Source of the DNA: the human T2T-CHM13v2.0 reference genome, Homo sapiens
DNA length: 64,000 bases
Reading direction: 5' to 3' (one strand)
Assembly (NCBI RefSeq): GCF_009914755.1
Contig: NC_060925.1
Part shown: positions 1,033 to 42,263 of the stretch, piece after piece
How the letters are laid out: each line of letters opens with the position of its first letter
How positions within the stretch are numbered: position 1 is the first letter of the stretch
The notes under the pieces: generated by a model
Told to the model about the DNA's origin: nothing
The model's database searches: none
The model's input: only the letters and a program-made list of their open reading frames with translations
Made by a program: the position numbers and the translations under genes

Positions 1033-1279
1033 GGCCTAGTGCGGTGGCTCATGCCTATAATCCCAGCACTTTAGGAGGCAGAAGCAGGAGGAACGCTTTA
1101 GCCCAGGAGTTTGAGACCAGCCTGGGCAACTTGGGGAGACCCCGTCTCAATAAAAAAATTTAAAAATTAGGGGAGGATTACTTGAGCCCAGGAGGTCGAG
1201 GCTGCAGTGAGCCATGTTTAAGCCACTCTACTCCAGCTTGGGAGACAGAACAATACCCTGCCTCGAAATAAAAAAGGAA
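1033..1279 (+). mobile_element. AluJ-type SINE with ~50-bp deletion at the start of the right arm
   Basis: J-type motifs (gcccaggagtttgagaccagcctgggcaac; gaggctgcagtgagccatg); aaaaattag joins directly to gggaggattacttgag; TSD ggaaaagga at 1024-1032 and 1585-1593. Confidence 0.85.
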
Positions 1280-1583
1280 GGCCGGGCGCGGTGGCTCACA
1301 CCTGTAATCTCAGCACTTTGGGAGGCCGAGGCAGGCAGATCACGAGGCCAGGAGATCAAGACCATCCTGGCTAATACGGTGAAACCCTGTCTCTACTAAA
1401 AATGCAAAAAAATTAGCCGGGCATGGTGGCGGGCACCTGTAGTTCCGGCTACTCAGGAGGCTGAGGCAGGAGAATGGCGGGAACCCAGGAGGTGGAGCTT
1501 GCAGTGAGCCGAGATCGTGCCATTGCACTCCAGCCTGGGCGACAGTGAGCGACTCTGTCTCAAAAAAAAAAAAAAAGAAAAAA
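1280..1583 (+). mobile_element. AluY inserted in the A-tail of the AluJ
   Basis: Full-length ggccgggcgcggtggctcac...; Y diagnostics accatcctggctaa, gagaatggcg, ggagcttgcagtgagccgag; poly(A) tail. Confidence 0.9.
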
Positions 1584-2931: not shown

Positions 2932-3256
<325 letters not shown>

Positions 3257-3258
<2 letters not shown>

Positions 3259-3360
3259 TTGCTTGCTTGCTTGCTTGCTTGCTTTCTCTCTCTCTCTCTT
3301 TCTTTCTCTCTCTTTTTCTCTCTCTCTCTTTCTTTCTCTTTTCCTTCCTTCCTTCTTTCC
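3257..3360. repeat. (GCTT)n/(CT)n/(CTTT)n compound microsatellite
   Basis: Directly visible; located at the tail of the adjacent antisense L1. Confidence 0.9.
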
Positions 3361-4957: not shown

Positions 4958-5170
4958 GCAGCTATGATATAGCAGAAAGAGCACTGAAAGGTCTGGATTC
5001 GAGGCCCCACTCTACCACTTATTAGCTGTGTGACCTTAGTCAAGGTAATTAACCTCTCTGAGCCTGAATTTCTTCAACTGTAAAATGGGCTTAGTGACAC
5101 CCATGCACCAGTCATCAGCAGCAAATAAGGAGATATTTCTAAAAGCAGTTTGTAAAATAGTACACAGTTA
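4958..5170 (+). mobile_element. MIR SINE
   Basis: tagctgtgtgaccttagtcaaggtaattaacctctctgagcctgaatttcttcaactgtaaaatggg MIR core. Confidence 0.85.
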
Positions 5171-5769
5171 TCCAGATAGTCAGGCTTTAGCTGTCTACAT
5201 GTGCTTCACATTGTTATGAAAATTGTTGTAAGCCATTGCAAAGACCATATGACAGGCAACATAAAAATCCTCAAAAGCAGAGCTATACTTTCTATACACT
5301 GGAACCAAAGCCAAGGAATAGGACAGAGAGAAATCTCCAATAGTATGTGGCCTCTTCTAGAGTCTAGACTCATTACCTCATCCCTGGCTAAGCCTCCAAA
5401 GGCTCACCAAGAGCTACCCAGAGATGGATTTCCTGTTTCACCACTTACTCCCATCACCTCACCAAGAACATTTCAGTCCCTTGGAGGCTCTGGGACAAAA
5501 GAGGGTGAGATAACGAGCTTAGACTCTCAATTTGGAGACTACCTCCAGAGGGTGTTATCTCTCCCAGTGCAGAGAGCAGGGCTGCTTAGAATATCCTGCC
5601 GAGAATCAGCTTCCCTAAGGTTTGTTTGCGCAGAGCCTGCATTTCCATCCTCATAATAGACATTGCGGATAAGAGTTCAGCAAACTAATAGAATAAATGC
5701 AGGAACTGCCCCTGCACCAAAAGATACCAGAATTTCAACCACACTAGACATCTCCCCTGGTGACCCTTT

Positions 5770-6475
5770 AGATCAACCCTCTCCAGTAGAACTTCCTGTG
5801 ATGATGAAAATGTCTTAGCTCAACCATTGTGGAAGACAGTGTGGCAATTCCTCAAAGACTTAGAACCAGAAATACCATTTGACCCAGCAATCCCATTACT
5901 GGGTATATACACAAAGGAATATAAATCATTCTATTATAAAGATACATGCATGCCTATGTTCATTGCAGAACTATTCACAATAGCAAAGACATGGAATCAA
6001 CCCAATGCCCATCAATGGTAGATTGGATTAAAAAACTGTGGTACATATACACCATGGAATACAATGCAGCCATAAAAAGGAATGAGATCACGTCCTTTGC
6101 AGGGACACGGATGAAGCTGGAAGCCATTATTCTCAGCAAACTGTTGCAGGAACAGAAAACCAAGCACCGCATGTTCTCACTTATAAGTGGGAGCCAAACA
6201 AGGAGAACACATGGACACAGGGAGGGGAACAACACTTACTGGGGCCTGTGCGGGGAGAGTTGGTGAGGGAGAGCATTAGGGAAAAGAGCTAATGAATGCT
6301 GGGCTTAATACCTGGGTGATAGGTTGATAGGTGCAGCAAACCACCATGGCACACGTTTACTTATGTAACAAACCTGCAAATCCTGCACATGCACCCCAAA
6401 ACTTAAAAAAAATATATTAAAAAAAAGAAAGAAAATGTCCTCTATCTGTGCTGTCCAACATGGTAGCCATGAGCC
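5770..6475. mobile_element. MER3 (hAT-Charlie) fragment split by the L1PA insertion (5770-5814 and 6431-6475)
   Basis: ctccagtagaacttcctgtgatgatgaaaatgtc | ctctatctgtgctgtccaacatggtagcca reconstitutes the MER3 consensus start. Confidence 0.7.
5815..6430 (+). mobile_element. 5'-truncated L1PA (older primate subfamily): ORF2 C-terminus remnant, 3'UTR and A-tail
   Basis: Translates to WKTVWQFLKDLEPEIPFDPAIPLLGIY (L1 ORF2p C-terminus); 3'UTR ...aacctgcaaatcctgcacatgcacccc; TSD gaaaatgtc at 5806-5814 and 6431-6439. Confidence 0.92.
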
Positions 6476-6648
6476 AAGTTTATATGCTCCTGGAGAAAAA
6501 GTACTGAGATGCCTTAAAGTAAGGCAAAAGTGGGAAAGTGAAGACTTTGGTGCATTCTTATAGACAGTCTTATCCTGCCCCCAGCTACCTGGCATGGCTC
6601 TGTCCTCTCCACCAATCTAAATCCTTCCCAGCCCTCAAGAGTCAGCTC
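6322..6648 (+). repeat. Source arm of a ~327-bp inverted repeat (partner 8137-8464)
   Basis: Reverse complement aligns to 8137-8464 with about 7 differences; the ORF track shows near-identical peptides on opposite strands. Confidence 0.95.
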
Positions 6649-7299
6649 AAGACTCATACCCCCCATAAAATCATCTATGCCTGTCCAATTCTGTGTCTCA
6701 TGTGGGTACACTGAAAACAAGGGCTAGAGAAATTTGGAGACTCAGGAAACTCCTGTGGGGGCAAGCAAGGAAGTATTCTCCAGGGAAATGATAACTTAAA
6801 TGGGAGCCTTAAACATTAAGAATCTGAGCAGGCCAAGTTATATGTTCAGACAAGCCAAGTGGAGACCCTAGAATGAGCAAGGGTGTAGAGGCCAAAAGCC
6901 ACTCAAGGTGTGTCAAACAGTTAGAAAATGAACCAGGTTTACTGATACCTCTTTGGCAGAGGGGAGTATCAGGATGTTTTAGAAAATTCTTATTTCCTGC
7001 CAGATCTGAGGTTGGTTTGAGTGGGATGGAAGAGGGCCTTGAGTGCTGACTTCAGTCTCTATTTTATAGGAAATGGGGAGTCTTAACACATTTTTGAGCA
7101 TAGGGATAACTTGAACAAAGAACACTGTGGGAAGAATATTCTGTTAGGACCAGCACACAGGACAGATGGGAAAGAATCCTGGAAAAGTAGGGACCACTGG
7201 GATCCCGTATCCCAATGCCTTTCATTTCTCAGGAATGACTTCTCCTTTTCTGATGGTTTCAAACAACCCAGTGACAATTTCCTCTTCCAACAGTGGAGC

Positions 7300-7861
7300 C
7301 TCACCACAACAGATAACTGCTGGCTACCTTCCCAACAGCCAGCCATTTCCCTCCCAATCACCATTTTCTAGCCTGCAAAGAGAACCCTGATTTTATTAGG
7401 TAGCAATATTTCCCATCCAGGGATGAGTCCTCATTTATCCTAGCTAGGCCAACCCATCTCTTTCCCCTTTACCAAGGCTAGCCTTGGGGAAGACATGTGG
7501 TCCTGTTATGGCCAAAGAGAAATAAGGGCAAATCTGCTAAGAAAGAATTTTTTTGCTCTGTGAGTAAGAAGTAAACAATGAAAAACCCCCTGGTCCCAGC
7601 TCTTTCCTTCATACTTTGGACCCTGTCCTGTGAGGATGAGAAGCCATCATGCAGGTATTAGGTAGCAAGCTGGACAATGATACCAACATCCCAAAGATAG
7701 AGAGAGGCTGGATCCCTGATGACATTATTGAACTGCCAAACCAACACAGTATCACATACCTCCAGACTTCAGGTTTAGTAAAAATAGTTCTCCTATTGGT
7801 TTAAGCCTCTGTTCATTTAGTTTTGTGTTTGTTGCAGCCCAAAACCTACTAAACTCATATA
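7300..7861 (+). mobile_element. Ancient ERVL/MaLR solo LTR (LTR16/MLT1-like)
   Basis: 3' terminus ggtttaagcctctgttcatttagttttgtgtttgttgcagcccaaaacctactaaactcata; internal catgtggtcctgttatggccaaagaga. Confidence 0.6.
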
Positions 7862-8136
7862 GTTCACCTGGGATCTGGCCACAGAGCTGATCTGTGATTC
7901 CTATTCCTATAGCTAATCGAAGTACATGGATCCTGCAGGACATCCCTGCAATTGAGGGTGCAGTGGACCAAGAGCACAGGTCTTGGGCAGTGGCCAAGAC
8001 CGAGAAGCAACAGTCACCAAGGCTAGAGGATGCTGATCCCCATCATAAAAGGAAGAGAGCCACACTCTTCCCTTGCTGCTGGGCAGGTAGAAATACCTGG
8101 CAGGAGGAGGATGTGCCAAGCCAGAGGAAGCCAGAA

Positions 8137-8464
8137 GAGCTGACTCTTGAGGGCTGGGAAGGATTTAGGTTGGTGGACAGGACAGAGCCATGCCAGGTAG
8201 CTGGGGGCAGAATAAGACTGTCTATAAGAATGCACCAAAGTCTTCACTTTCCCACTTTTGCCTTACTTTAAGGCATCTCAGTACTTTTTCTCCAGGAGCA
8301 TATAAACTTGGCTCATGGCTACCATGTTGGACAGCACAGATAGAGGACATTTTCTTTCTTTTTTTTAATATATATTTTTTTAAGTTTCGGGGTACATGTG
8401 CAGGATGTGCAGGTTTGTTACATAAGTAAACGTGTGCCATGGTGGTTTGCTGCACCTATCAACC
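8137..8464 (-). repeat. Inverted duplicated copy of 6322-6648 (L1PA 3' end + MER3 piece + flank)
   Basis: Direct alignment; flanked by the direct repeat ccagaggaag at 8121-8130 and 8463-8472. Confidence 0.95.
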
Positions 8465-10339
8465 AGAGGAAGGGCTCAGGGCCCCAGCTAATTCATCTAG
8501 GACCACACTGCCCACCAAGGGGCTTGGTCCTCCAAACTGAGAAGAAAGATCCCTCCCACCAGCCAGGCCCAGGGCTTGACAAGCTGGATGCATTCCCTGC
8601 CAAATCCTCACTGCCTATCATACTTTACGAACACAAAAACAAATTCCACCATATGTTAAAGTTAATTGCAAACATTTGCTGCTGAAGAGAGCTCCATTTC
8701 TTAAGAGCCCACAGAGATCTGGTTACACTGGTGGCTGAAGCATCAACCACCCTCATTCACTCATTGAAAGCAGGGCAAAGTAAGGGTGGCAACCAAGTGG
8801 TGGAAGAGACCCTCATTGCTTCCTTCCCTGCCTCTTCCCCCTCAGTCTGTTTCCACCTCCACTGGGTCCAAACAAGTGCACATTCCAGGCCAGAGAGTGT
8901 GCACCCCTCTATCAACACAGAACAATGACCATAGTGGCGATTTGGGAGGACCAGGGCTGTGGGGGCAGGGAGAGATGATGTCAGGAAAGCATGGAAGGAA
9001 GAGGATGAACTGAAGTCAGCTGGCTGTGTTTCATTGCCTGGCGAGTGCTGAAATAGGAGCCACAGAGAAACCCAGCAGCTCCAGAGTACCCAGAGCAGTC
9101 AGGGTGGTTTGCTAGGGGTCTGCATAATGTCTATGAGCGATAGTTATTGATGGTGTGGTTTAGTGGGGGTAAACCTGTGGCTAACAAGGCCCTCAGCCTA
9201 GAATGCAGCCTGGAGAAGTCCCCAGACAACATAGATAGCTGGGAGGAAGTAAGGACTTAGATCTCCATGAACATTCTTCCACGGACCACAGAGGCATTAA
9301 TAAGCACATCCCTGGCAGCATGAAAGGGAAGTAGGAGGCTGTGCATTGCCTCCACATTCCCATCTGTCCCAGAAGAAGCATTCATGGTTTGAATTTGCAC
9401 CAACCCAGCTGGAGACATGAACGGGGAGGAGCTCTAAGTGCTCTCCTGGCTCAGGCAAGAGCACTACTGAGGATGTCTCCAGAGCAATTCCTTGAACTGC
9501 TCTTTGGGCAAGGGCAGATGTGTTGTGTCTGGCTGACAGAGAACTCTTTCTGAGCAACCACTTGGAGAAGGAATATCTGATGCCAGCATAGTCAGTGAAT
9601 GACCTGTCATGACTTGGAACTCATACCCCAAGCCCTTCCAAGAAGTGACTAGCATGTGTGGTCTGCAGAAGGGGGCTCACTTGGCCATCTTCTCAAGCAA
9701 CCCAATATCCCTCAGTAGGCACCTCCTAACAGCAAGTCCCAAGACACACAATCTGCATCCATACAAAGCCCATTCACACAGCCAATTCACACAGGCAACT
9801 CAAAGGAGAAAACAATCTGTCAAGAAAGTCAGGTGAACCAACTAGGAACCTCTTGGAGCTTGTCAATTGAGACCTCACCTTCCCATCTGGGATCCTGTAT
9901 ATTGACCACTTAAATATTATTTCGTCTCCTTAGATATGACTCTTTCCCTCCACCCTCCACCAAACACATTTCAGCACTTCATTATATACTATCTTATTTG
10001 TAATAAACAAGTATTTATGAAGCGTCCACTGTATCAAGTTCCCCCATGCTATGTGTATCACAAAAACATATATTGTCCTTACCAAGATAAGTCTAATATC
10101 TAGTTGGAGGTGCAAAGCATTTACATGAAAAAAACTAAGTGACAATACAAAATTTAGGTGAGAGTTCAAGATGACGGTGCAAGAGGACATTTAATGAAGG
10201 CCAACTACAAATGAGGCGCCCTTGGGAGGGCATAGAGGACCATGAGGAGCTGCCACAAGTAGTGCCCAGTGGAGACAAGAGATGTGGCCATCATCGTGCT
10301 CACCAACCCTTACATACCCAAGACGTTCCTCAAGCTGCT

Positions 10340-11325: not shown

Positions 11326-12195
11326 CATTTTCTTACCTGTTTGAGGGAATATGAGTTCTAGCATGATTTCATTTTGCCAGAGTGAATTTTTTTGGTCTTA
11401 TTTTAATTTTTAATTTAAATATAGGATTCATAGGTTCATAGGAGCTCTGGAGTTAATGATGAAAGGAACCCTATGGTTTCCAATAAATGAGGCTTCCCAT
11501 TGATCAAACACAGCCAGACTGACATCTGAAATTGCCCCTGAAGTGCACAGAACTCAACTCTTCCCAATTTCACAGCACCCGACAGCCCCGAGTCCTAGGC
11601 TGGAGCCTCTATCAGGCAAGCAATTTGCTTCTGGGTCCCTCGAGTCACTTGTTTGACTTTGCTGATTAATACATTAATGGCAGTTATTCATTAGCAACTG
11701 TGAACAACACTCCCCAATAAGCAGCAGTCTGGGCTTTGTTGGAGAGCCCACTGCAACTGCTCGTTAGCATTTGTGGGAAACATCCCAGTAAAAATACCAA
11801 AGGCTATCACGCTAAATCCGACTGGGGTGACAGAGGTTTACATACTTCCACGTAACTTCTAGTCATCTCCCAATATTCATAGACCCTTCCTTCCCATATA
11901 TCCCTACTGGGTTCCCCTCAATTACACTCTGTTGCCCCCCATCATATCCAGTTCCTTGGCAAAGCCCCCTTCCTTATTTCTATAGCAAATCAATTCATCA
12001 AACAAGAAGTAATCCTTCTCCAGGGAAGAAGAGCTGCTGAATCACTCTTGGGACTGGAAGGGGGCTGGTGGAGGGGACGAGGCAGATGCAAGGGGAGAAA
12101 AAAGTATAGGGATGAAAATGTGCAGCACACAGGAACGACAACTGGGAGGACTGTGCTCTCATGCCTCTGGTTTCTAGAGCTTTTATGGCGCTGGG

Positions 12196-28125: not shown

Positions 28126-28141
28126 ACAATATGCTATATGC

Positions 28142-28571
<430 letters not shown>

Positions 28572-29196: not shown

Positions 29197-29514
<318 letters not shown>

Positions 29515-30714: not shown

Positions 30715-31776
<1,062 letters not shown>

Positions 31777-37140: not shown

Positions 37141-38515
37141 AATATTGTAGAAATGCCGAGAACTCTCCCTTCCCCCTTCTCACCCTGCCTGCTTCTCCTC
37201 ATTCATGATTCCCAGGATGTCTGTGAACCCAGGTATATTACAGAGGGACTTAGCCCACTGGGGAGCTAAAGTAGAGAAACCCTAGGTGGCATCTAAGGGC
37301 TAGAGGATCTGAGGGCCAGGAGTTTGACAGCAGTAGGCTCAATCTGTAATGAAATGGAGCCCAGATATCTGCTTTCCTTATTTATGAAATCATAGGAAAA
37401 TTCTCCTCACTGCCCACTGTGCAAATATGCATGATGCTGACTCAAAACCACCAACTCTCAGGACCGGCTTAACACAATTCCAAACCTGGTGAGAACCCGT
37501 GGGGCAGCTACACTGTACCATCTGTGGAAACCCTTGATGGGCCATTTTAATATCCCTTCCCCTTTAACACGTGGACTTTCCACTGCTCTGGTTCCATTGG
37601 GTGTTACACCCACCTGCCTCTCGTCCCACCTGGCAACTGTATGGTTGAATACCTGATTGCAGAGCCCCCCATCGCTGCACAACGTTTGGCTTACACCAAA
37701 ACTAGCCTGAGTCCAAGATTACACTCCCGACAACACACACACACACACTTCTCTGCCAGTACAATTCTATAACACATTATGATTTCTGTAAAACCTAAAG
37801 TTTATTTACATCACACACACAGAGGACAAGGAGCTGGGAAATGCACTGCATCATACCAAGCTAACATTCCTGCTTACTCAATGCCCATTCCAAGAAGTGC
37901 CCTTCTCCCTGTTTACCCAGACAGGCAGCTTCCAATCTGAGGAAATTTGGTGTTAAAAAACAAACAAACATAAAAGGTGAGAATGCGCTGCTAAATATGC
38001 TCCTCCAGTGTCAAAAATGACAGCCAGGTTCCAAGATGTACTTTTAAAAGAAAACAAAATCAAGCAATGAGGATAGTGAACACAGAAACAAAACAAAACA
38101 AGAACAAGAATAAGAAGAATGAAAGAACAAACTGGTTCTTTTCTTTTTCTTTTGTTCTAAACTGTTGCCAAGTTATTTATCCCTGGAAAGCCACTTACTT
38201 TTTCAAGGTGAAGTATTTCCTTGTGAGATGACTTATTTCACTTGGTTCCACTTAAGTTTATAGCTATTGGTTGGGGGTGGGGGGAATATCAACTCATAGA
38301 ATGCTGGAGTACAAAGGGATCTTCAAAACATCATTCGTCTTCTTGTTTTACAGAGGAAGAAACTGTAAGGCCTGAATTTTGCTCAACCACAATTAAGTGA
38401 CTTCCCCAAGTTCACACAGACAGACACTCAAAACAGCAGAGACAATAAGAAACCAAGTCTCCCAAACCCCCTTTTCTGCTTTCCCTCCCTCTGTACTAGT
38501 GAAAGAAGAGAATGA

Positions 38516-38850
38516 GGCTGGGTGTGGTGGCTCACACCTGTAATCTCAGAACATTGGGAGGCCGGTGGGGGGCGGGGTGGATCACCTGAGGTCAGGAGTT
38601 CAAGACCAGCCTCGCCAACATGGAGAAACCCCATCTCTACTAAAAATACAAAAATTAGCCGGGTGTTGTGGTGCATGCGTGTAATCCCAGCTACTCAGGT
38701 GGCTGAGGCAGGAGAGTTGCTTGAACCCAGGAGATGGAGGTTGCAGTAAGCCAAGATCACACCACTGTACTCCAGCCTGGGCAACAGAGTGAGACTCCAT
38801 CAAAAAAAATAAAATAAAATAAAGGAAAAAAAAGAAAGAAAAGAAAAGAA
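38516..38850 (+). mobile_element. AluS (Sx/Sq-like) with G-rich expansion in the left arm
   Basis: gatcacctgaggtcaggagttcaagaccagcc; patterned A-tail; imperfect TSD gaaag(a/c)agagaatg. Confidence 0.9.
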
Positions 38851-41530: not shown

Positions 41531-42263
41531 TGAGAGACATGTGCAGTTGGACTAGTCAACAGGTAGCGGTAATTTAGCTAAATAGCACACTTCCCAGGTA
41601 ATGGGGTCGATGGACTCGTCGACACATATTGCCACCCAGCAGTGGCAGGATCCTGGAGAAAGGGCCCCTCCACTGGAAATTTATGACTGAGCAAAGGGGA
41701 GAGGAAAGAGAGATGAAGGGAGACAAACTTATGACATATAACACCATCTGGGATGGAATGTTCTAGAAAGCAAGCGTGAGAGGGAACAAAGACATCAAGC
41801 AGAGAATCTTGAAGCTTAAGTATGAAAGGACCCAGTAGGCCAAATATCACATTTTAAAATAAACCTCTCCACTCAGGGCCAAAGCAAGAAGAGGGGCTAA
41901 GTATCATGAAGCAGAGGAGTCCCTACAACCACTGTCCTTTCTGACACAGCTCCTGGGCAGAGCTTAGCTAACTACACATTCCACAGTGAAAACGTCAAAT
42001 TGGATATCCATCAGTTGCTCCAAAGAAACACAGAGATACAGAAATCTGACAAAAGTACTGGCAGTATCCAACTTGAATCTGGCTTCTTTTTATCTTTATT
42101 ATTGGTCTCACTCATGGGCACACAGCCCACATTCACAGTTCTTTGAAAACCACAGCAGGTTAAGTACCAAGACTCCAGAGTTAGGGCCAATGAGATATGA
42201 TATGGTGAGTGAGCCAAGGAGTGACCAACCAAGAGCCATAGCACATGCAAAACGAGCACAGCC

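What the first reader, a model, noticed from the sequence alone, without database searches (positions are those of the whole stretch)
6322..8472. Locally templated inverted insertion: 327 bp copied 1.5 kb away between 10-bp direct repeats
Seen: 8137-8464 is the reverse complement of 6322-6648, with about 7 differences (~98%). The copied block crosses element boundaries: the last ~110 bp of the L1PA, its A-tail, its TSD, a MER3 remnant and ~170 bp of downstream flank. The copy is bracketed by ccagaggaag (8121-8130 and 8463-8472). One junction has a 6-nt filler, ccagaa (8131-8136), resembling a restart of that same motif. The other junction has a 2-nt cc microhomology. There is no new poly(A) at the copy's 3' end. 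Inference: this is not a normal retrotransposition or 3' transduction but a template-switch repair product (MMBIR/FoSTeS or polymerase-theta-type templated insertion) at a staggered break, younger than the L1PA. At two positions the copy matches my recollection of the L1PA consensus (cacatcc, atgtacc) where the source differs, consistent with independent divergence after duplication.
Basis: partly seen in the sequence, partly recalled or inferred. Interest (0 to 1): 0.8.

Follow-up and report, generated by a model that had tools for sequence, protein, structure and literature searches.

The report
Inverted local copy from template switching
A 328-base stretch in an intron of human LMX1A is a backwards copy of DNA lying 1.5 kb away, most likely pasted in millions of years ago when a broken or stalled DNA strand briefly copied the wrong template; it is a clean but ordinary scar of DNA repair.

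Summary
Window 8137-8464 is the reverse complement of 6322-6648, with 6 substitutions and one 1-nt indel. CCAGAGGAAG occurs only twice in the 64 kb, exactly at the two edges of the copy.

The block holds the last ~110 nt of a 5'-truncated L1, its A-tail, the L1's own downstream TSD and about 210 nt of flank. As a whole it has only two places in the T2T genome, so it is not a repeat family. The L1's own TSD pair shows that 6322-6648 is the original.

Canonical retrotransposition fails its tests. There is no poly(A) at either end and no endonuclease-like target motif, and the source L1 is a fragment of about 0.6 kb.

The 6-nt filler is a restart: AAGCCAGA recurs 10 nt downstream of itself.

Best reading: one DNA-templated switch-and-return event (foldback or FoSTeS/MMBIR type). 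Divergence dates it to roughly 9-19 Myr.

No primate outgroups were available, so the empty site is unverified. It is a well-resolved, unusually long member of a known kind. Interest is modest.

The parts
5806..5814 (+). Upstream target-site duplication (GAAAATGTC) of the source L1 fragment
   Evidence: Longest shared word between 5780-5830 and 6405-6460. L1 homology to other genomic copies starts mostly at 5815.
5815..6430 (+). 5'-truncated L1 fragment (about 0.6 kb: ORF2 end, 3' UTR, A-rich tail). Its last ~110 nt lie inside the copied block.
   Evidence: 37 of 37 other genomic L1 3' ends align here at a median 87% identity. Starts run from 5799 upward with a mode of 5815; ends fall at 6421-6439. 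NCBI masks 5796-6238 and 6262-6461 (hub annotation).
6431..6439 (+). Downstream TSD of the source L1. It was copied internally into the insertion, where it maps to 8346-8354 in reverse complement.
   Evidence: repeat pair and coordinate map.
6322..6648 (+). Source (template) block, 327 nt
   Evidence: It is contiguous with the rest of the L1 on its left and with unique flank on its right.
6649..8120 (.). Unique spacer between source and target, in ancestral orientation (both 10-mers are direct and both flank the copy)
   Evidence: blastn of 6649-8136 against the window finds only itself.
8121..8130 (+). Left direct repeat CCAGAGGAAG (original target sequence)
8131..8136 (+). Filler CCAGAA. CCAGA is a re-copy of 8121-8125 after a 3-nt AAG re-alignment, and the last A has no template.
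   Evidence: AAGCCAGA at 8128-8135 is identical to 8118-8125.
8137..8464 (-). Inserted inverted copy, 328 nt
8463..8472 (+). Right direct repeat CCAGAGGAAG. Its first two bases (CC) are shared with the end of the copy (2-nt microhomology).

Best explanation
This is a single DNA-templated 'switch-and-return' event in the germline of an ape ancestor.

Proposed steps:
1. A + strand 3' end that had just been synthesised, or exposed by a break, through ...CCAGAGGAAG (8130) came off its template.
2. It re-aligned once 10 nt back on the AAG at 8118-8120 and re-copied CCAGA.
3. It came off again and primed on the + strand itself, or on the lagging-strand template, which has the same sequence, 1.5 kb behind at 6648.
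4. It copied 327 nt leftwards to 6322, passing through unique flank, the L1's TSD, the A-tail and the L1 3' end.
5. It then returned to the original template by CC/GG pairing at 8121, 10 nt behind where it had left.

Returning behind the departure point, or equivalently filling in a 10-nt staggered break, produces the flanking direct repeat. The inverted orientation follows from using the same-sense strand as template.

Shown: the anatomy, the direction of copying, the uniqueness of the pair, the absence of retrotransposition hallmarks, and divergence after the event.

Inferred: the order of switches, which polymerase or pathway acted (foldback synthesis at a resected break joined by end joining, or FoSTeS/MMBIR at a fork), and the date.

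The product has no evident function. It leaves a 327-bp inverted repeat with a 1.5-kb loop inside an LMX1A intron.
For: - Exact anatomy.
- The whole block has only 2 places in the 3.1-Gb assembly. Its 213-nt non-L1 part has only these 2 plus two 35-40-nt hits (4 of 4 candidates scored).
- The source is the original. The L1 is contiguous from about 5815 to about 6430 with its own TSD pair, and the copy carries only the downstream one, internally.
- The template lies 1,488 nt from the target. By my arithmetic from the genome size, a copy landing at random within 2 kb of its source has odds of about 4 kb / 3.117 Gb, or 1.3e-6. This argues for a mechanism acting in cis on DNA.
- The filler is an 8-nt identity offset by exactly 10 nt, as expected for an aborted restart between serial switches.
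- There is a 2-nt microhomology at the return junction.
- No A- or T-run lies at either end. No endonuclease-like A/T pentamer lies within the 40 nt around either junction, where A+T is 0.40-0.44.
- Independent divergence: at 6379 and 6392 the copy has the base found in 32 of 37 and 35 of 37 other L1 3' ends, and the source differs. The result holds in the 29 loci picked for similarity to the source (24 of 29 and 28 of 29).
- Published frameworks cover this geometry:
  - The four-point template-switch model includes events where point 4 precedes point 1 (PMC7954356, passages; PMC5453318, passages).
  - Foldback inverted insertions form at yeast DSBs by Pol delta synthesis on one end and NHEJ capture by the other, with 0-5 bp of microhomology at the capture junction (PMC11724301, passages).
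  - Inverted and dispersed duplications in human genomes are attributed to MMBIR (PMC9510932, passages).
Against: - No orthologous empty site could be examined, so the single-10-mer ancestral state is inferred, not seen.
- The initiating junction (8136|8137 against 6649|6648) has 0 nt of microhomology, and one filler base (A at 8136) has no template. The yeast foldback model and MMBIR both expect priming at microhomology.
- The insert (327 nt) and the jump (1.5 kb) are well beyond typical values. Foldback insertions in yeast are 2 to about 150 bp (PMC11724301). Human short-range template switches have a mean of 11.6 bp and a longest of 318 bp (PMC9435742, passages).
- Sequence alone cannot separate synthesis in place from ligation of a pre-made fragment, or a DNA template from an RNA one.
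- The third L1-part difference (6398) is unpolarised (A 20, G 17 of 37). The three flank differences cannot be polarised without outgroups.
Confidence: 0.72

Rival explanations
1. Capture of a pre-made DNA fragment. A free single- or double-stranded piece derived from 6322-6648 (a displaced flap, a replication by-product or an excised fragment) was ligated by end joining into a break with 10-nt staggered ends 1.5 kb away. Fill-in of the overhangs produced the direct repeat.
For: - The junctions look like end joining: 2-nt microhomology on one side, and 0 nt plus 6 extra bases on the other.
- Fill-in of staggered ends yields small duplications (PMC8355091, abstract and passages).
- Copy-paste insertion of genomic fragments at breaks without loss of the donor is described in yeast (PMC11724301, introduction passage).
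Against: - The donor is intact and only 1.5 kb away, which a freely diffusing fragment does not predict.
- The filler is a re-copy of the target itself, which points to a polymerase sampling templates rather than simple ligation.
- Neither argument is decisive.
Confidence: 0.12
2. RNA-templated insertion. A local transcript was reverse-transcribed at the break, by L1 ORF2p acting without its endonuclease or by another polymerase with reverse-transcriptase activity. Two transcripts are candidates: LMX1A pre-mRNA, whose sense sequence equals the + strand of the copy, or a + strand read-through RNA covering the L1 tail and flank. This would be an atypical 3' transduction or a templated-sequence insertion.
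For: - The block begins inside an L1 3' end and runs through its A-tail into 3' flank, the layout of a 3' transduction.
- A 10-nt TSD is present.
- The window lies in an LMX1A intron on the - strand (hub annotation), so a - strand 3' end ...CTGG could prime on the pre-mRNA by 2 nt.
- ORF2p-made ends are reported to undergo many non-canonical outcomes, including templated insertions and inversions (PMC11702581, passages).
Against: - No poly(A) at either end of the copy.
- No endonuclease-like motif at the target.
- The source L1 is a 5'-truncated fragment of about 0.6 kb that cannot drive its own transcription or mobilisation.
- Chance proximity of about 1e-6 for a trans event (arithmetic).
- The event fits neither TSIP class as defined (PMC5110952). 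Class 1 needs poly(A) and a TTTT/A site. Class 2 has no TSD and a distant template.
- LMX1A is not known to me as a germline-expressed gene (recalled, not tested).
Confidence: 0.08
3. Multi-step history. Either a larger inverted duplication or an inversion with duplicated breakpoints was later trimmed by deletions, or a 10-nt tandem duplication already existed at the target, so that the flanking repeat is not a product of the insertion.
For: AAGCCAGA recurs at a 10-nt offset at the left junction, so a pre-existing tandem unit cannot be excluded without outgroups.
Against: - The staggered-break inversion model predicts that the second 10-mer sits next to the source arm in inverted orientation. 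In fact both 10-mers are direct and both abut the copy.
- A pre-existing tandem pair would still need a 3-5-nt duplication at the right junction to give the full AGAGGAAG after the copy.
- This history needs several precise events where one suffices.
- The spacer 6649-8136 is single-copy and undisturbed.
Confidence: 0.05

Closest known systems
Short-range template-switch mutations (four-point model; Loytynoja & Goldman 2017, PMC5453318; Walker et al. 2021, PMC7954356; Loytynoja 2022, PMC9435742)
   Same: One switch-and-return in which a nearby fragment (2->3) is copied in reverse complement and creates an inverted repeat. The order here is 3 (6322) < 2 (6648) < 4 (8121) < 1 (8130). Events with point 4 before point 1 are explicitly reported (PMC7954356, passage).
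   Different: - Scale: the reported human events have a mean of 11.6 bp. The longest is 318 bp in masked sequence and 97-180 bp per individual in unmasked sequence. The short-read filter discards a switch-point distance over 250 bp (PMC9435742, passages; the point labels in that passage were lost in the held text). Here 327 nt were copied from 1.5-1.8 kb away, which such scans do not search.
- There is also an extra aborted restart (the filler).
FoSTeS / MMBIR templated insertions and inverted or dispersed duplications among complex SVs (Hastings et al. 2009, PMC2621351, listing only; Mako, PMC9510932, passages)
   Same: Copy-number gain of a small segment inserted nearby in inverted orientation. 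Several successive switches, with 2-3-nt microhomology at two of three switches. The donor is left intact.
   Different: Much smaller than the kb-Mb disease rearrangements for which these models were built. One switch has no microhomology. A replicative origin cannot be shown from sequence.
Foldback templated inverted insertions at double-strand breaks in yeast (PMC11724301)
   Same: One end primes on its own strand, the new DNA is unwound, and the other end captures it with 0-5 bp of microhomology (2 nt here). The result is a longer inverted repeat beside the break.
   Different: The yeast events are 2 to about 150 bp, mostly under 14 bp. They start from a 10-nt inverted microhomology with a 41-nt loop. 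Here the loop would be 1,488 nt, the insert is 327 nt, and no inverted microhomology exists at the priming site.
L1 3' transduction / class 1 templated-sequence insertion polymorphism (PMC5110952; PMC11702581)
   Same: Contains an L1 3' end, its A-tail and downstream flank, and is flanked by a 10-nt duplication.
   Different: No terminal poly(A), no TTTT/A-like target, a truncated and inert source L1, and an insertion only 1.5 kb from the source.
Small tandem duplications from fill-in of staggered breaks (PMC8355091)
   Same: The 10-nt direct repeat could arise by fill-in of complementary overhangs before joining.
   Different: Here 334 nt of foreign and filler DNA lie between the two repeat copies. 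Overhang polarity and the enzymes involved are unknown.

Membership tests
Canonical L1 TPRT insertion / 3' transduction | Flanking target-site duplication | tested here: met
   CCAGAGGAAG at 8121-8130 and 8463-8472, the only two occurrences in 64 kb.
Canonical L1 TPRT insertion / 3' transduction | Poly(A) at the 3' end of the inserted sequence | tested here: not met
   Neither edge of the copy has an A- or T-run. The only A-rich tract is internal, being the source L1's tail.
Canonical L1 TPRT insertion / 3' transduction | Target at an endonuclease motif (TTTT/A type, as stated in PMC5110952 and PMC11702581) | tested here: not met
   No such A/T pentamer in 8101-8140 or 8455-8495, where A+T is 0.40-0.44. 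The pentamer list used was partly recalled.
Canonical L1 TPRT insertion / 3' transduction | Source is a transcribed, retrotransposition-competent L1 | tested here: not met
   The source L1 spans only about 5815-6430, about 0.6 kb of its 3' end.
Class 2 templated-sequence insertion (DSB patch; PMC5110952) | No TSD; template from a distant region; NHEJ-type junctions | tested here: not met
   A TSD is present and the template is 1.5 kb away. Only the junction features fit: microhomology and extra bases.
Template-switch mutation (four-point model) | [quoted passage not shown] | tested here: met
   Points are 1 = 8130, 2 = 6648, 3 = 6322, 4 = 8121.
Template-switch mutation (four-point model) | Short range and short length (tens to hundreds of nt; mean 11.6 bp, longest 318 bp in PMC9435742) | tested here: not met
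   327 nt copied from 1,488-1,814 nt away, at or beyond the reported maximum.
FoSTeS / MMBIR | Microhomology at each template switch | tested here: inconclusive
   3 nt (AAG) at the restart, 0 nt at the jump to 6648, and 2 nt (CC) at the return.
FoSTeS / MMBIR | Arises during replication or break-induced replication | not testable with these tools
   Sequence alone cannot show this.
Foldback insertion at a DSB (PMC11724301) | Inverted microhomology that primes self-templated synthesis | tested here: not met
   The 3' end ...CCAGAA has no complementarity to 6649-6654.
Inversion by staggered breaks with inverted duplications at both breakpoints | The short duplicated segment lies in inverted orientation at the opposite breakpoint | tested here: not met
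   No reverse-complement copy of the 10-mer exists anywhere in the window. Both copies are direct and adjacent to the insert.
Composite interspersed repeat / transduction family | Many genomic copies of the whole block | tested here: not met
   Only 2 full-length places. The other 38 scored hits cover only the L1 part, query 210-328 (40 of 1,065 candidates scored). The flank-only search gave 4 of 4 candidates: self, the copy and two 35-40-nt hits.

The most novel reading that the evidence does not exclude
This may be a kilobase-range intrastrand foldback (or leading-to-lagging template) switch in the ape germline. It would then sit in the long, so far unsurveyed tail of the 'short-range template switching' process, an order of magnitude beyond the mean event and outside the windows that current scans search. 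In a single step it created a 327-bp, 98%-matched inverted repeat with a 1.5-kb loop inside an LMX1A intron. That repeat could form a long double-stranded RNA in the pre-mRNA (computed duplex about -620 to -630 kcal/mol) and so be a target for A-to-I editing. It is also a substrate for recurrent inversion of the 1.5-kb spacer. If such events are common, a class of de novo long inverted repeats in primate genomes is being missed or mis-filed as 'L1 fragments'.
Probability: 0.3. Interest if true: 0.45.

Novelty: new member of a known kind. Interest (0 to 1): 0.3.

Why it matters
It is a textbook-clean natural example of a templated, inverted, local insertion. All three switch junctions are readable. 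The template's composite content (L1 tail, TSD and unique flank) proves the direction of copying and rules out retrotransposition without needing outgroups.

It shows that repeat annotation alone would mis-file the copy. NCBI masks 8324-8466 as a repeat, where it would pass for an independent L1 fragment.

It suggests a simple genome-wide search: inverted local copies of at least 100 nt, within a few kb, flanked by short direct repeats. Such a search could measure how far the template-switch size spectrum extends in primate germlines.

For LMX1A itself no effect is expected. The event is deep in an intron, more than 33 kb from the only annotated regulatory element in the window (41622-41791, hub annotation).

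Tried and rejected
2. Primate orthologues and pangenome haplotypes: no tool here holds them. Only the window's own assembly could be searched.
3. Known RNA families in 5000-10000: 0 matches at gathering score.
4. Alternative template for the filler: the junction-spanning 10-mer AGAAGAGCTG (8133-8142) also occurs at 12027-12036. It does not extend, lies 3.9 kb away, and about 0.2 such hits are expected by my rough arithmetic. I treated it as chance.
5. Naming the short repeat remnant after the L1's TSD:
   - 6433-6470 matches L014 (38 nt, 95%) and 6443-6472 matches L013 (30 nt, 100%).
   - The sequence upstream of the L1 (5700-5814) has no adjacent match at those loci.
   - No repeat library was available, so 'MER3' stays untested.
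6. Hairpin potential at the target and at the two ends of the source (DNA parameters): -11.5, -3.1 and -7.4 kcal/mol for stretches of 70-101 nt. No shuffled control was run, so no conclusion is drawn.
7. Staggered-break inversion model: rejected on the orientation of the 10-mers.
8. One literature search failed on a typing rule and was re-sent in allowed form.
Full report
**What is there**

Reading 5500-9000 and a repeat scan show two inverted arms. A gapped alignment resolves them as 6322-6648 (327 nt) and the reverse complement of 8137-8464 (328 nt). They differ by 6 substitutions and one 1-nt indel in an A/TA run. Homology ends abruptly on both sides.

The 10-mer CCAGAGGAAG occurs only twice in the 64,000-nt window on either strand, at 8121-8130 and 8463-8472. 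These are exactly the two edges of the copy. Six bases (CCAGAA, 8131-8136) separate the left 10-mer from the copy. On the right, the last two bases of the copy (CC) are also the first two of the 10-mer. Among 200,000 random 329-nt intervals of the same window, 116 had a flanking 10-mer repeat and 943 a flanking 8-mer within the same tolerance.

**What the copied block contains, and which arm is the original**

Thirty-seven other L1 3' ends from the same genome (8 loci, 29) all align to the left arm's neighbourhood at a median 87% identity. Alignment starts have a mode of 5815, and alignments end at 6421-6439.

This L1 fragment of about 0.6 kb is flanked by its own 9-nt direct repeat GAAAATGTC, at 5806-5814 and 6431-6439. 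The left arm is therefore part of an intact, ordinary, 5'-truncated L1 insertion plus its downstream flank. The right arm carries only the last ~110 nt of that L1, the A-rich tail, the downstream TSD (now internal) and about 210 nt of flank. Copying went from 6322-6648 to 8137-8464, and it happened after the L1 had inserted.

The names 'L1PA' and 'MER3' could not be tested. The only evidence for a further repeat remnant is two 30-38-nt matches elsewhere in the genome to 6433-6472, together with NCBI's mask reaching 6461.

**Is it a repeat family?**

No. Searching the whole 3.1-Gb assembly with the copy gave two full-length places, itself and the source. The other 38 scored hits cover only the L1 part, query 210-328 (40 of 1,065 first-look candidates were scored, so L1 counts are lower bounds).

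The 213-nt non-L1 part alone gave 4 candidates, all scored: self, the copy, and two 35-40-nt hits. Within the window this is the only duplicate pair above 91% identity. The other six pairs are interspersed repeats of about 300-314 nt at 80-90%.

**Is it retrotransposition?**

The layout (L1 tail, A-tail, 3' flank, TSD) resembles a 3' transduction, but the other defining features fail:
- There is no A- or T-run at either edge of the copy.
- There is no A/T-rich endonuclease-type motif within 40 nt of either junction, where A+T is 0.40-0.44. The motif definition comes from PMC5110952 and PMC11702581 (passages read).
- The source L1 is an inert 3' fragment.
- The copy lies 1,488 nt from its template. 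For an insertion landing at random, the odds of falling within 2 kb of the source are about 4 kb / 3.117 Gb, or roughly 1e-6 (my arithmetic).

It also fits neither class of 'templated sequence insertion polymorphism'. Class 1 needs poly(A) and a TTTT/A site. Class 2 has no TSD and a distant template (PMC5110952, abstract and passages).

**Junction anatomy and mechanism**

The string AAGCCAGA at 8128-8135 repeats AAGCCAGA at 8118-8125, exactly 10 nt upstream. The simplest reading in the + direction has five steps:
1. A 3' end that had reached ...GGAAG (8130) re-aligned on AAG (8118-8120).
2. It re-copied CCAGA.
3. It dissociated again and, with one untemplated A and no microhomology, began copying the + strand at 6648 leftwards to 6322.
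4. It returned through CC to 8121.
5. It continued from there.

Returning 10 nt behind the departure point gives the direct repeat. A 10-nt staggered break with fill-in gives the same product (PMC8355091, abstract and passages).

Using the + strand as template for a + strand 3' end is what two models predict:
- Self-priming of a resected 3' tail (foldback). This is demonstrated in yeast as Pol delta synthesis on one end and NHEJ capture by the other with 0-5 bp of microhomology (PMC11724301, passages).
- A leading strand switching to the lagging-strand template behind a rightward fork (FoSTeS/MMBIR).

The opposite polarity would need the - strand at 6322-6648 as template. After resection from a break at the target that strand would be degraded rather than exposed, and for a leftward fork the region would still be unreplicated duplex. 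I therefore favour the + direction. This is inference.

In the four-point description the order is 3 < 2 < 4 < 1. Events with point 4 before point 1 are reported in great apes (PMC7954356, passage).

A staggered-break inversion model is excluded because both 10-mers are direct and both abut the copy. The same fact shows that the 1.5-kb spacer is in its ancestral orientation in this genome.

**Evidence against, and what stays open**

- The initiating switch has no microhomology, which both the foldback and the MMBIR models would lead one to expect.
- The insert and the jump are far larger than typical foldback or short-range switch events. Yeast foldback insertions are 2 to about 150 bp. In humans the mean is 11.6 bp and the longest 318 bp (PMC11724301; PMC9435742, passages).
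- Ligation of a pre-made fragment cannot be excluded from sequence.
- Reverse transcription of a local RNA cannot be excluded either. LMX1A pre-mRNA has the sense of the copy's + strand (hub annotation).
- I rate these two rivals at 0.12 and 0.08, and a multi-step history at 0.05.

**Age**

Six substitutions in 327 sites give 1.83%, or 1.86% Jukes-Cantor. I used recalled, not computed, germline rates of 1.0e-9 to 0.5e-9 per site per year. These give 9.3-18.6 Myr. The Poisson 95% interval on the count stretches this to 3.4-40 Myr.

The differences are not just copying errors:
- At 6379 the source has A, while the copy and 32 of 37 other L1 ends have C.
- At 6392 the source has C, while the copy and 35 of 37 have T.
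- Both results hold among the 29 loci that were picked for similarity to the source: 24 of 29 and 28 of 29.
- The third L1-part site, 6398, is unpolarised (A 20, G 17).
- The three flank sites need outgroups.

Gene conversion between the arms would make the event look younger than it is.

**Comparison with what is known, and verdict**

The thing works like a template-switch or foldback templated insertion. It would be called an inverted dispersed duplication in structural-variant catalogues, where such calls are attributed to MMBIR (PMC9510932, passages). It is not a member of the L1-mediated classes. It sits at or beyond the upper size limit of the published human short-range template-switch sets. 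One filter in those scans discards a switch-point distance over 250 bp (PMC9435742, methods passage; the point labels in that passage were lost in the held text).

It is therefore a new, very clean member of a known kind, not a new kind. No functional consequence is evident. No Rfam family matches, there are no exons in the window, and the only annotated enhancer is over 33 kb away (hub annotation).

The two arms could form a very stable duplex in the LMX1A pre-mRNA (about -620 to -630 kcal/mol). They could also mediate inversion of the spacer. Both are untested predictions.

Noticed in passing
window 6241-6281 (+ strand): A loose G-quadruplex-type motif (four G3+ runs, loops of 12 nt or less) lies in the L1 3' region on the strand proposed as template. 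It sits 41 nt beyond the point (6322) where copying stopped. It is one of only two such motifs in 5001-10000; the other is 8944-8970. It could be why synthesis ended nearby, but the 41-nt gap makes this only a lead.
   Followed up: partly
window 8101-8130: The 30 nt just left of the insertion point are 77% purine on the + strand and include AGGAGGAGGA. The right flank 8473-8512 is 45% purine. This may be relevant to stalling or to primase-poor fill-in. Not tested.
   Followed up: no
window 12027-12036: The 10-mer AGAAGAGCTG, which spans the filler/copy junction (8133-8142), recurs here on the + strand. It does not extend and is probably chance.
   Followed up: partly
window 6404-6417 and 8371-8385: The single indel between the arms lies in the A-run/TA-run of the L1 tail: A8 then TATATT in the source, A7 then TATATATT in the copy read in source orientation. 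This is typical microsatellite slippage rather than a junction feature.
   Followed up: yes
window 6433-6472; L013:1504-1533; L014:1501-1538: A piece of 30-38 nt right after the L1's TSD matches two other loci in the genome at 95-100%. It looks like a remnant of an old interspersed repeat into which the L1 inserted.
   Followed up: partly
window 1274-1583, 2946-3264, 28138-28448, 29199-29509, 31042-31339, 38512-38823: Six further repeat pairs of 304-314 nt at 80-90% identity, in both orientations. Their sizes and the NCBI masking suggest ordinary SINE copies (the family name is recalled, not tested). None has the >97% identity of the pair studied.
   Followed up: no
window 6322-8464: The event created a 327-bp inverted repeat at 98% identity with a 1,488-nt spacer. 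The spacer is in its ancestral orientation here, because both 10-mers are direct. Such a structure could support inversion polymorphism or double-stranded RNA in the LMX1A pre-mRNA (duplex about -620 to -630 kcal/mol).
   Followed up: partly
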